From IMG/VR virus record IMGVR_UViG_3300032087_004407, positions 1 through 64,000 of that record: a stretch of DNA of 64,000 bases; one strand, written 5' to 3'. Below are positions 3,386 through 4,810 of the stretch, piece by piece. The stretch is from a virus. Position 1 is the stretch's first letter; each line of letters begins with the position of its first letter. The translations under genes and the position numbers were made by a program. Under the pieces are notes generated by a model that saw only the letters and a list, made by a program, of their open reading frames with translations, had not been told where the DNA came from and searched no databases.

Positions 3386-4810
3386 ATGAAAAATACAGTA
3401 ACTAAATATATAGGAAACTTAAAATTAAGACACAAACCATCAAAAGAATTTGACGCATATAATCAACAAGTAATAATGTGGTCAAGAGCAGTAAGTAAAA
3501 AGTTTTTCTCTAAAATAAAATCTGGAGAAATATTTTGGAATTCACCAAGAAAAATTGCTGATATTCCATTTTTAAGTGGCCAAAAAAAAGGATATGTTTT
3601 ATTGTCAGATGACAAAGAAACAGAAGGATGGTCTGAAATTAAAATTGCCAAGTCATCTTCAAGAGGCTATGTTAAACATAATTCCGAAAAACAACAAGAC
3701 GAAAGATTTACTCGTGGAATGAAACCTGCGGCTTTGCGTAAGTCAAAAGACTGGTTTCAAGAAATATTTAAAGACTGTCAAAATGAAAGTTTAGCGTGTA
3801 AAATTATTGAAAATATAGGCGATAGATACGCGGGATATTGTCAAAGAAATAAAAAGTTGCCCAAGTCTCCTATACAAATTAAAAAACAAAACTTTAACTA
3901 CAAAAGCGGTATAGAATATGATATTGATAATAATATTATATTCGTACCACACCATAAAAAAGCGGGTAATCAAATTACCAGAATACCTTTAAAAGTATTA
4001 GATAAGTTTAGCGTTTTAAACAACAAGCAAATTTGGTTAGACCAAAACCAAGATAAACTTAAAAAAGCTAGAAATGATGATCGCGACCATCCTTGGAAAC
4101 TAGATTCTGGAGCTGTATGCCATAAAAAATATAACTTATTTATATTTACTGTGCAAAAAGAATATGAAAACGCTTACAACCCCAAAAAGTTTATTGCAGC
4201 AGATATTAACATGACAAAAGATGTTTGGTTGACTTTTAGCGAGCCAGTAAACGGAAAGTTAATTTATAGCACTCCCGCTCATATTACAGAGTTGATGAAA
4301 GAAGTTGAAAATCTTCAAAAGAAAATAAAATCAACTTTAGATATAAGCCCTAATGAAAGAGCTAAAAATAATGCAACAACAAGCCATCGAAAAAAAATAA
4401 GAGTCAAATGGGCAAGCACTCATAAAAAACTAGAAAAAGCAATTAGAAAATATTTCAAAGAAGAGATATTTACACAGGAGTTCATTCAATATTGTAAAGA
4501 CAATCAAATGGGATACGCGCATGACGACATTGCTACTGGAGCGCAAACTGGAACTTTTGGACAAGATAAAATAAAGAAGATTGTGTTCGAGATATTTAAA
4601 GACCACAAAATTCCTATCACAAAAGTTAACCCAAGATTCACTTCGCAAAAATGCGTTAAATGTGAACATACTGACAAAAAAAACCGCAACAAAGATGACT
4701 TTAAATGTCAAAAATGCGGCTTCGAAGCAAATGTTCACGAAATGGCCGCAGTTAATATATCGCGAAAAGCGTATGATGATTATTTGAATAATCTTTGTTG
4801 CAAATTTTAA
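3386..4810 (+). CDS. TnpB/Cas12f-like RNA-guided protein, RuvC probably inactive or altered
   Basis: RuvC-I FIAADIN; VNPRFTSQKCVKC...FKCQKCG zinc ribbon; AAVNI after RuvC-III; RuvC-II reads YAHDDI and RuvC-III reads NVHEMAA. Confidence 0.85.
   Translation: MKNTVTKYIGNLKLRHKPSKEFDAYNQQVIMWSRAVSKKFFSKIKSGEIFWNSPRKIADIPFLSGQKKGYVLLSDDKETEGWSEIKIAKSSSRGYVKHNSEKQQDERFTRGMKPAALRKSKDWFQEIFKDCQNESLACKIIENIGDRYAGYCQRNKKLPKSPIQIKKQNFNYKSGIEYDIDNNIIFVPHHKKAGNQITRIPLKVLDKFSVLNNKQIWLDQNQDKLKKARNDDRDHPWKLDSGAVCHKKYNLFIFTVQKEYENAYNPKKFIAADINMTKDVWLTFSEPVNGKLIYSTPAHITELMKEVENLQKKIKSTLDISPNERAKNNATTSHRKKIRVKWASTHKKLEKAIRKYFKEEIFTQEFIQYCKDNQMGYAHDDIATGAQTGTFGQDKIKKIVFEIFKDHKIPITKVNPRFTSQKCVKCEHTDKKNRNKDDFKCQKCGFEANVHEMAAVNISRKAYDDYLNNLCCKF

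What the first reader, a model, noticed from the sequence alone, without database searches (positions are those of the whole stretch)
3386..4810. RuvC catalytic triad of the TnpB-like protein appears degenerate (D / E->D / D->H)
Seen: RuvC-I Asp is kept (FIAADIN). The RuvC-II position reads YAHDDI against the typical xxxEDL, and RuvC-III reads NVHEMAAVNI against DRDxNAAxNI. The zinc ribbon is intact. There is no tnpA, cas1 or cas2 in the window. Established: nuclease-dead TnpB/Cas12f derivatives (TldR repressors, dCas12f with sigmaE) act as RNA-guided transcription regulators with short guides. Inference: a domesticated, probably non-cleaving effector used by the phage to silence or activate genes.
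Basis: partly seen in the sequence, partly recalled or inferred. Interest (0 to 1): 0.72.

Follow-up and report, generated by a model that had tools for sequence, protein, structure and literature searches.

The report
Phage TnpB-like protein, variant active site
A marine phage carries a small TnpB/Cas12f-like RNA-guided protein whose unusual active-site residues (Asp-Asp-His) are the conserved signature of a large virus-borne family, so the enzyme is probably not simply "dead".

Summary
ORF 3386-4810 (474 aa) is a TnpB/Cas12f-fold protein with Asp273 at RuvC-I, Asp380 where Glu is usual, His451 where Asp is usual, and an intact CxxC...CxxC zinc ribbon. The 78.9-kb viral record holds no tnpA, resolvase, cas1 or cas2.

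"Degenerate" is not supported. In 117 family representatives, nearly all from metagenomes and viral contigs, Asp273 and Asp380 are invariant. RuvC-III is almost only His (60), Asp (41) or Gln (14), and 11 of the 14 Gln forms carry an Asp two residues upstream. In the window's own clade (27 sequences, down to 32% identity) only 36 positions are invariant. These include D273, H379, D380, R434, H451 and the four Cys. Glu452 is not conserved. The loop after RuvC-II, where the lid sits in TnpB/Cas12, is among the most conserved segments. This is the opposite of what is reported for TldRs.

"Domesticated" is supported: the gene is single-copy, syntenic, and sits among phage tRNA/tmRNA genes. Seven covarying pseudoknot RNA units flank it, and six carry a hypervariable hexamer (U1 a 10-nt stretch).

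Cleavage versus binding only cannot be settled by sequence. I favour a functional Asp-Asp-His centre (about 0.5). The scan had already noted the RNA units on this same stretch.

The parts
3386..4810 (+). TnpB/Cas12f-like effector gene, 474 aa
   Evidence: AF2 model pLDDT 88.7. Foldseek and VIA-align top hits are ISDra2 TnpB (Z 15.1), OsCas12f (Z 15.0) and AsCas12f (Z 14.6).
4202..4204 (+). RuvC-I Asp273 (GAT)
   Evidence: Invariant in 117/117 family rows. Ends strand 268-274 of the model. Codon checked.
4520..4525 (+). His379-Asp380. Asp380 is the RuvC-II position, where Glu is canonical.
   Evidence: D380 is invariant in 117/117 rows. H379 is invariant only in the window's 'AHD' clade.
4526..4570 (+). 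Conserved loop after RuvC-II (TGxxGxFGQDK, aa 381-395), at the place of the lid of TnpB/Cas12
   Evidence: G385 97%, G389 94%, G392 91%, Q393 91%, D/E394 86% across the family. That this loop is the lid is inferred from its position.
4652..4717 (+). Zinc ribbon (TNB domain): C423, C426, C441, C444, with N433-R434 between the Cys pairs
   Evidence: R434 aligns with the NR of OsCas12f and is invariant in the clade.
4736..4738 (+). RuvC-III His451 (CAC), where Asp is canonical
   Evidence: All 27 unique clade members have His. In the family the position reads H 60, D 41, Q 14, G 2.
3244..3305 (+). RNA unit U1 (pseudoknot; variable segment 3282-3295)
3317..3376 (+). RNA unit U2, ending 9 nt before the ATG (variable segment 3355-3367)
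4818..4882 (+). RNA unit U3, starting 8 nt after the stop codon (variable segment 4858-4870)
4892..4960 (+). RNA unit U4 (variable segment 4935-4947, contains AAGGAGG)
5173..5200 (+). Consensus sigma-70 promoter (TTGACA, 16 nt, TG-TATAAT; 12/12) in front of U5-U7 and tRNA-Leu
5224..5289 (+). RNA unit U5 (variable segment 5265-5277)
5298..5367 (+). RNA unit U6 (variable segment 5340-5352)
5379..5441 (+). RNA unit U7 (variable segment 5417-5429), ending 5 nt before tRNA-Leu
5447..5534 (+). tRNA-Leu(UAA) just downstream of U7. RNase P cleavage at its 5' end would trim the last unit's 3' side (inference).
   Evidence: In L034 and L090 the last unit likewise abuts a tmRNA or tRNA gene.

Best explanation
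The gene encodes an immobilised, phage-borne member of a large, mostly virus-encoded branch of the TnpB/Cas12f superfamily. Its normal RuvC centre is Asp-Asp-(His/Asp/Gln), not Asp-Glu-Asp. In this protein the centre is Asp273, Asp380 and His451, supported by the invariant Arg434 in the zinc ribbon and a highly conserved loop after RuvC-II. This is a selected variant, not a decayed one. It has the same make-up as the Asp-Asp-His/Asp set of Argonaute PIWI domains. I therefore think the site is most likely still a working metal-dependent centre. On this reading the protein is loaded with the ~62-70-nt pseudoknot RNAs encoded on both sides of the gene and acts as an RNA-guided nuclease in a phage-host or phage-phage conflict. 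Shown: the fold, the residue identities, their conservation pattern, the non-transposon context, the RNA structure by covariation, and the hypervariability of the RNA hexamers. Inferred: that His451 binds metal, that the RNAs are this protein's guides, that cleavage occurs, and the nature of the target.
For: (1) D273 and D380 are invariant in 117/117 family rows down to about 20% identity.
(2) RuvC-III is H 60, D 41, Q 14, G 2. None of the other one-step neighbours of Asp (N, Y, A, V, E) occur. Well-supported branches force at least 11 switches.
(3) Gln variants carry Asp at -2 in 11/14 rows against 11/103 in the rest (Fisher 2e-7). In 6 independent contrasts the trait goes the same way 4.4 times and the other way 0.1 times.
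(4) In the window's clade (27 unique sequences, 32-100% identity) only 36/474 columns are invariant. They include D273, H379, D380, R434, H451 and 4 Cys.
(5) The loop at 381-395 is among the most conserved segments, whereas the lid is poorly conserved and dispensable in TldR (PMC13622181).
(6) The zinc ribbon and C-terminus are intact, unlike many TldRs (PMC10705468).
(7) The same RNA unit type accompanies D-D-H (window, L033-35, L037...), D-D-D (L084/85) and D-D-Q (L090) proteins, so the variants appear to do one job.
(8) Altae-Tran et al. 2023 (PMC10691335) reached the same inference for TnpB branches with a conserved RuvC-III Asp->His.
(9) From established knowledge, His is a genuine ligand in RNase-H-fold nucleases: Argonaute DEDH versus DEDD, Cas9 RuvC H983, Thermus RuvC.
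Against: No biochemical data exist for any member. Cas12m keeps conserved D-E-D, H-D-D or N-D-D sets and still only binds DNA (PMC11013384), so conservation alone does not prove cleavage. The sister clade of the window's clade has Gly at RuvC-III (P0014, P0020), so the third residue can be lost. The variable RNA segment is only about 13 nt and its first 6-8 nt are paired in cis. A competent TnpB with a 10-nt guide binds without cutting (PMC13507860), and TldRs use 9-16-nt guides. I could not read model coordinates, so the geometry of D273, D380 and H451 was not measured. The Asp(-2) and Gln association does not reach significance once phylogeny is taken into account (median p 0.125).
Confidence: 0.5

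Rival explanations
1. One reading: a nuclease-dead, RNA-guided DNA binder (TldR-, dCas12f- or Cas12m-like) that silences or activates host or phage genes. The RuvC residues would be kept for folding or R-loop stabilisation only.
For: Variable segments are short, about 13 nt. Short guides give binding without cleavage even in active TnpB (PMC13507860), and TldRs use 9-16 nt (PMC10705468). Two of three canonical residues differ, which meets the operational TldR screen (PMC10705468). Cas12m shows conserved variant triads in a binding-only family (PMC11013384). The sister clade has Gly at RuvC-III.
Against: D273 and D380 are invariant in 117/117 rows, RuvC-III is restricted to H/D/Q with a compensating Asp in the Gln forms, R434 is invariant and the lid-like loop is highly conserved. 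There is no C-terminal truncation. No sigma factor or other partner gene lies next to the gene. No match to any variable segment at <=1 mismatch was found in the 78.9-kb record. Fast turnover of the hexamers between near-identical phages fits an arms race better than housekeeping regulation.
Confidence: 0.3
2. The Asp-Asp-His centre is active but not on target DNA. It either matures the multi-unit RNA precursor, as TnpB and some Cas12 enzymes do with RuvC, or it cuts RNA or single-stranded DNA. Double-stranded DNA would only be bound.
For: Units are packed head to tail at 73-77-nt spacing and must be separated. TnpB is reported to process its own RNA through RuvC (cited in PMC10705468). This would explain a conserved centre together with short guides.
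Against: The flanking tRNA and tmRNA genes suggest that host RNase P/Z could do part of the trimming. Cas12m processing is RuvC-independent (PMC11013384). There is no direct evidence either way.
Confidence: 0.13
3. An ordinary mobile TnpB of an IS200/IS605/IS607 element that happens to lie in a phage.
For: TNB domain and TnpB fold. IS607-type TnpBs occur in some cultured phages.
Against: No Y1 or serine transposase and only one copy in the record. Relatives at 50% protein identity show the same gene, RNA units and tRNA/tmRNA neighbours. NCBIfam guided_TnpB scores 31.5 bits against a cut-off of 100. The RNA units lie on both sides of the gene and are not a 3'-overlapping omega RNA.
Confidence: 0.03

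Closest known systems
Cas12f (type V-F effectors: OsCas12f 9NZQ/9NZS, AsCas12f 8J12/7WJU, Un1Cas12f1 7C7L)
   Same: Best sequence match (7e-13) and a top structural match (Z 14-15 over about 365 residues). Similar size, a split RuvC with an inserted zinc ribbon, and the NR and NAAxNI motifs.
   Different: Cas12f has D-E-D, a regular CRISPR array and a tracrRNA. Here the centre is D-D-H, there is no CRISPR array, and there are 62-70-nt pseudoknot units with an internal variable segment. Dimerisation was not tested.
TnpB of IS200/IS605 (ISDra2, 8H1J/8EXA) and IS607 (ISFba1, 8IAZ)
   Same: Same whole-length fold (Z 15.1, 336 of 362 residues aligned) and same domain order.
   Different: No transposase, no transposon ends, single copy and conserved synteny in phages. 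D-D-H replaces D-E-D. The NCBIfam score is below the cut-off. The RNA is not a single 3'-overlapping omega RNA with a 16-nt terminal guide.
TldR, TnpB-like nuclease-dead repressors (PMC10705468, PMC13622181)
   Same: Domesticated TnpB relatives, some phage-borne, with short guides. Fewer than two canonical DED residues by strict residue identity.
   Different: TldRs show progressive, heterogeneous loss of the acidic residues, frequent loss of the C-terminal RuvC and zinc finger, and a poorly conserved lid. Here the substitutions are conservative and fixed, the C-terminus is intact and the loop is highly conserved. TldRs usually have one guide RNA. This locus has seven RNA units.
dCas12f with sigma-E (PMC13472631; 9N9C)
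   Same: An immobilised Cas12f relative with long-repeat, omega-RNA-like arrays.
   Different: Needs an adjacent ECF sigma factor and has lost RuvC-III. No sigma gene is adjacent here: the only Sigma70_r2-like ORF is 50 kb away. RuvC-III is retained. The structural match to 9N9C ranks below the active Cas12f structures.
Cas12m (type V-M; PMC11013384)
   Same: A small Cas12 with conserved non-canonical RuvC sets (H-D-D, N-D-D). It stands as a warning that conserved residues need not mean DNA cleavage.
   Different: Cas12m is about 600 aa, CRISPR-associated, and varies at RuvC-I. This family never varies at RuvC-I or RuvC-II.
TnpB branches with altered RuvC-III in Altae-Tran et al. 2023 (RIIIr-4, Asp->His; virus-enriched RIIr-4)
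   Same: Conserved Asp->His at RuvC-III, enrichment in viruses, and the authors' inference that activity is retained (PMC10691335).
   Different: [quoted passage not shown] This family keeps the zinc finger. Whether it equals their RIIr-4 could not be checked because no supplementary files are held.
Argonaute PIWI catalytic set (DEDH/DEDD; established knowledge, not tested here)
   Same: An RNase-H fold with Asp on strand 1, Asp on strand 4 and His or Asp at the start of a C-terminal helix, with His and Asp interchangeable among active enzymes.
   Different: A different protein family. A fourth 'glutamate finger' has no demonstrated counterpart here. D/E394 is only a candidate.

Membership tests
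TnpB/Cas12 superfamily (fold level) | WED/REC plus split RuvC with inserted zinc-ribbon (TNB) domain | tested here: met
   Pfam PF07282 at 46.5 bits, cut-off 26.3. AF2 model pLDDT 88.7. Z 15.1 to ISDra2 TnpB and 15.0 to OsCas12f.
TnpB (OMEGA, IS200/IS605/IS607) | Canonical D-E-D RuvC triad | tested here: not met
   D273, D380, H451.
TnpB (OMEGA, IS200/IS605/IS607) | Lies in a transposon with a Y1 or serine TnpA, or as multiple copies | tested here: not met
   No PF01797 or PF00239 hit and one TNB gene in the 78.9-kb record, which is 57% complete. Syntenic in L033-35.
TnpB (OMEGA, IS200/IS605/IS607) | Curated family model score (NCBIfam guided_TnpB) | tested here: not met
   31.5 bits against a cut-off of 100.
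TnpB (OMEGA, IS200/IS605/IS607) | One omega RNA overlapping the gene's 3' end, with a ~16-nt guide at its 3' end | tested here: inconclusive
   Instead there are seven separate 62-70-nt units on both sides with an internal ~13-nt variable segment. The mature RNA ends are unknown.
Cas12f (type V-F CRISPR) | Adjacent CRISPR array of regular repeats and spacers | tested here: not met
   No array found by TRF or the repeat search. The units have diverged, covarying stems. No Cas1 or Cas2.
Cas12f (type V-F CRISPR) | Asymmetric homodimer on one guide RNA | not tested
   No complex prediction was run.
TldR | Fewer than two canonical DED residues (the screen used in PMC10705468) | tested here: met
   Only RuvC-I is canonical by residue identity.
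TldR | Deteriorated site: heterogeneous substitutions, frequent C-terminal or zinc-finger loss, poorly conserved lid | tested here: not met
   D380 in 117/117 rows, H/D/Q only at RuvC-III, four Cys intact, loop 381-395 highly conserved.
TldR | Guide matches a promoter of a linked or host gene next to a TAM | not testable with these tools
   No match at <=1 mismatch in the record. The host is unknown and 13-mers are too short for database searches.
dCas12f-sigmaE | Adjacent ECF sigma factor gene and loss of RuvC-III | tested here: not met
   The neighbours are purT, a 64-aa ORF, tRNA-Leu, tmRNA and glyA. The only Sigma70_r2-like ORF is at 54914-55630. The RuvC-III motif is present.
RIIIr-4 TnpB clade (PMC10691335) | RuvC-III Asp->His together with absence of the C4 zinc finger | tested here: not met
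   His is present, but so is the C4 zinc finger.

The most novel reading that the evidence does not exclude
The protein and its seven flanking pseudoknot RNAs form a distinct kind of phage RNA-guided system that is neither CRISPR nor OMEGA. The effector is TnpB-derived with an Argonaute-like Asp-Asp-His centre. The specificity element is a short internal segment held in a pseudoknot (a 6-8-nt cis-paired part plus a hypervariable hexamer) that turns over quickly between near-identical phages. The system would be used for conflict with hosts or rival phages.
Probability: 0.35. Interest if true: 0.85.

Novelty: new variant of a known kind. Interest (0 to 1): 0.6.

Why it matters
Screens for "nuclease-dead" TnpB/Cas12 relatives usually count departures from D-E-D. 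This case shows a large viral family (117 of 123 aligned rows, mostly 50%-identity cluster representatives) that such a screen would flag. Yet its Asp-Asp-His/Asp/Gln centre is under strong purifying and apparently compensatory selection. If the centre is active, it widens the known chemistry of RuvC in RNA-guided enzymes and gives a compact (about 400-480 aa) effector with very short RNAs. If it is inactive, it is a second conserved-site binder family like Cas12m, this time in phages. Either result, together with the hypervariable RNA hexamers, bears on how phages use RNA-guided proteins.

Tried and rejected
- Glu452 as a compensating residue: rejected. The position is K10/T6/R6/E3/V1/L1 in the clade.
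- A differential search for an acidic column specific to the His variants found none. Only the Gln variants show Asp at -2.
- Self-targets: none of the seven variable segments has a match at <=1 mismatch elsewhere in the 78.9-kb record. About 43% of the genome is missing, so this is weak.
- The TACGAG motif elsewhere in the window (28236, 30603, 31590 and others) is not the same element.
- Rfam has no family for the units, even at E<=1.
- GenBank phages (INPHARED) hold no close homologue, only distant IS607-type TnpBs in Thermus, Rhodothermus and Alicyclobacillus phages.
- DGR-like adenine mutagenesis as the source of hexamer variation: rejected, because the substitutions are not A-specific.
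- The supplements of PMC10691335 are not held, so I could not tell whether this family is their RIIr-4.
- RNA-library contigs (X15, X16, X19) cover parts of the locus, but contigs cannot show transcription, ends or strand. I do not use them as evidence of expression.
- No complex or dimer prediction was run.

Full report
**What is there**

The ORF at 3386-4810 (+) encodes 474 aa. Pfam finds only the Cas12f1-like TNB zinc-ribbon domain, at 4e-12. NCBIfam's guided_TnpB model scores 31.5 bits, far below its cut-off of 100. The best solved relative by sequence is OsCas12f (9nzq, 7e-13), followed by AsCas12f.

An AlphaFold2 model built on a 123-sequence alignment is confident: mean pLDDT 88.7, pTM 0.83, with only residues 82-105 disordered. 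It matches ISDra2 TnpB (Z 15.1, 336 residues), OsCas12f (Z 15.0) and AsCas12f (Z 14.6) over its whole length. The protein therefore has a bona fide TnpB/Cas12f fold.

**The observation**

- Asp273 lies in FIAADIN, Asp380 in YAHDDI and His451 in NVHEMAAVNI.
- The four zinc-ribbon cysteines are C423, C426, C441 and C444. All codons were checked.
- The phmmer alignment to OsCas12f puts ANVH under ANAD.
- Family alignments fix RuvC-II on Asp380, which is invariant. Asp381 varies.
- In the model the three residues sit at the canonical places: the end of strand 268-274, the end of strand 375-380 and the start of helix 450-467.

**Context**

- The record is an IMG/VR viral contig of 78,889 bp, about 57% complete.
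- It carries rIIA, rIIB, a DNA ligase and a large terminase subunit, so "phage" is correct.
- HMM searches of the whole record find no Y1 TnpA, serine recombinase, Cas1 or Cas2, and only one TNB gene.
- The gene lies between purT and a cluster of tRNA-Leu, tmRNA and glyA.

**Is the triad degenerate? No**

An exhaustive profile-free search gave 1,300 relatives at E<=0.001 and 117 at E<=1e-10. IMG/VR and JGI metagenome scans added 22 and 62 loci, almost all marine.

In the 123-row alignment, 116 rows form one clade (support 97) set apart from canonical D-E-D TnpBs. Counted by residue state, 117 rows carry Asp at both RuvC-I and RuvC-II, and in those rows RuvC-III is His 60, Asp 41, Gln 14 and Gly 2. 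Well-supported branches force at least 11 changes of state. E->D is therefore the family's rule, and position three alternates among a few residues.

Asp (GAY) and His (CAY) are one mutation apart, and so are His and Gln. The other one-step neighbours of Asp (Asn, Tyr, Ala, Val, Glu) never appear. That pattern argues for selection, not drift.

Gln variants have an Asp two residues upstream in 11 of 14 cases, against 11 of 103 in the rest (Fisher 2e-7). Across 6 phylogenetically independent contrasts the trait goes the same way 4.4 times and the other way 0.1 times. This is too few pairs for significance (median p 0.125). It looks like relocation of a carboxylate, as described for rearranged TnpB sites (PMC10691335).

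**The window's own clade**

- The 'AHD' clade has 27 unique sequences with pairwise identity down to 32%.
- Only 36 of 474 positions are invariant. They include D273, H379, D380, N433, R434, H451, the four Cys and the NAAxNI residues A455, N457 and I458.
- Three named positions would all fall in that invariant set by chance about 4e-4 of the time.
- Arg434 aligns with the NR motif of Cas12f. From my own knowledge, the corresponding Arg (R490 in Un1Cas12f1) is needed for cleavage.
- The loop right after RuvC-II (TGxxGxFGQDK, 381-395) holds several of the most conserved positions in the whole family. In TnpB and Cas12 this is where the lid sits. In TldRs the lid is poorly conserved and dispensable (PMC13622181). 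That the loop here is the lid is an inference from its position.
- Against the 99%-identical relative L032, the ORF shows 15 synonymous and 4 non-synonymous codon changes.

**What that does and does not prove**

[quoted passage not shown] This protein shows none of that.

From established knowledge, His is a real ligand in RNase-H-fold nucleases. Argonautes use DEDH or DEDD interchangeably, and Cas9 RuvC and Thermus RuvC also use a His. Altae-Tran et al. inferred retained activity for TnpB branches with a conserved RuvC-III Asp->His (PMC10691335).

There are real caveats:
- Cas12m orthologues with D-E-D, H-D-D or N-D-D sets all bind DNA without cutting it (PMC11013384).
- The sister clade of the window's clade has Gly at RuvC-III.
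- A competent TnpB given a 10-nt guide binds but does not cleave (PMC13507860).

I put a functional centre at about 0.5-0.6, a pure binder at about 0.3, and a centre used only for RNA processing or non-dsDNA substrates at about 0.13.

**The RNA partners**

I found these independently. The scan had also noted them on this same stretch.

- There are exactly seven copies of a 62-70-nt unit, all on the + strand: two before the gene and five after it. There are none elsewhere in the 78.9 kb.
- Each unit reads: P1 5' strand, CAAyAAAGnnnGTT, P2 5' strand, loop CyAyyACGAG, P1 3' strand, about 6 variable nt, then CAAA and the P2 3' strand. This is an H-type pseudoknot.
- On 17 units, 92.9% of cells pair, against 67% in shuffles and 34-47% in slid controls. 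Thirteen of 15 pairs show changes on both sides.
- A perfect sigma-70 promoter precedes U5-U7. U7 ends 5 nt before tRNA-Leu.
- The same unit type occurs with proteins of the D-D-H clade (L033-35, L037, L054, L056...), the D-D-D clade (L084/85) and the D-D-Q clade (L090). This argues that the three active-site variants do the same job.
- No Rfam family matches the units.

**Hypervariability**

Against L032 there are 60 differences in 2,642 nt. Nineteen lie in the 1,425-nt ORF (1.3%). Twenty-eight lie in the 45 nt of the seven short variable stretches (62%). Four hit the A of ACGAG in U2, U4, U6 and U7. Four lie in P1 and keep pairing through G-U wobbles. Contigs from other public runs (X16, X15 and the near-identical X13) carry yet other alleles at the same places. 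Orthologous units in L037, L054, L056, L041 and L001 keep P1 and P2 but differ in the hexamer.

This is a fast-evolving specificity element. It fits antagonistic co-evolution better than stable gene regulation. No target was found in the record itself.

**Comparison and novelty**

The protein works like a TnpB/Cas12f effector. It is not a member of TnpB proper, because it has no transposon, no D-E-D triad and a sub-threshold family score. It is not Cas12f, because there is no CRISPR array. It is not TldR in the deteriorated sense, not dCas12f-sigmaE, and not RIIIr-4, because the zinc finger is present.

Branches with conserved non-canonical RuvC residues, some enriched in viruses, are already on record (PMC10691335). 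The triad itself is therefore a new variant of a known kind. The combination with internal-segment pseudoknot RNAs appears undescribed in the papers I could search.

**Limits**

There is no biochemistry and the host is unknown. RNA-library contigs cannot show transcription.

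Noticed in passing
window 3286-3295, 3362-3367, 4865-4870, 4942-4947, 5273-5277, 5347-5352, 5424-5429: The last 5-10 nt of each unit's variable segment are hypervariable. 28 of 45 positions differ from the 99%-identical contig L032, against 1.3% in the ORF. Further alleles appear in public runs X16, X15 and X13. Orthologous units of related phages (L037, L054, L056, L041, L001; L084 versus L085) differ in the same hexamer.
   Followed up: partly
window 3350, 4930, 5335, 5412: The A of the conserved loop motif ACGAG also varies between strains in four of the seven units (A->G in U2 and U4, A->T in U6 and U7). 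I found no clear pairing partner for it.
   Followed up: partly
window 4865-4870 versus L032: The U3 hexamer TATCTC is replaced in L032 by its exact reverse complement GAGATA. This could be chance (1 in 4096) or a small inversion.
   Followed up: no
window 3282-3295 and 5417-5429: The variable segments of U1 and U7 share GCGCGAT. Their reverse complements read as offset synonymous versions of codons for Ile-Ile-Ala-His(-Arg). They may be two RNAs aimed at one coding motif.
   Followed up: partly
window 4935-4947: The variable segment of U4 contains AAGGAGG, a perfect Shine-Dalgarno-like string, 26 nt upstream of the ATG of a 64-aa ORF (4972-5166) that has no family match.
   Followed up: no
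window 5667-6108; also 1491, 5447, 31060, 31139: The phage encodes a tmRNA (136 bits) and four tRNAs. Family members in other viral contigs also sit inside tRNA/tmRNA clusters (L003, L016, L018, L033, L046, L057).
   Followed up: partly
window 2051-3241, 6071-7264, 8130-9101: Three auxiliary metabolic genes for purine and one-carbon metabolism (purT, glyA/SHMT, purM-like AIR synthase) surround the locus.
   Followed up: no
window 54914-55630: A 238-aa ORF with a marginal Sigma70_r2 match (24 bits), probably a phage sigma factor. It lies 50 kb from the effector gene.
   Followed up: no
L003:4405-4860 and 6198-6400: A 28%-identity D-D-D relative is flanked by seven RNA units of a different design: a conserved hairpin, then GCAGGTGG, a 9-10-nt variable stretch, CCACACTGTACTGA, and a downstream complement of the variable stretch. 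The array starts within the last nucleotides of a tmRNA gene.
   Followed up: partly
window 893-1177: A 94-aa ORF with a prokaryotic N-terminal methylation (type IV pilin-like) motif in a phage genome.
   Followed up: no
window 3595-3700 (aa 71-105 of the effector): A roughly 35-residue insertion that no aligned relative has, including the 50%-identity P0002. It is disordered in the model (pLDDT <50 at residues 82-105).
   Followed up: no
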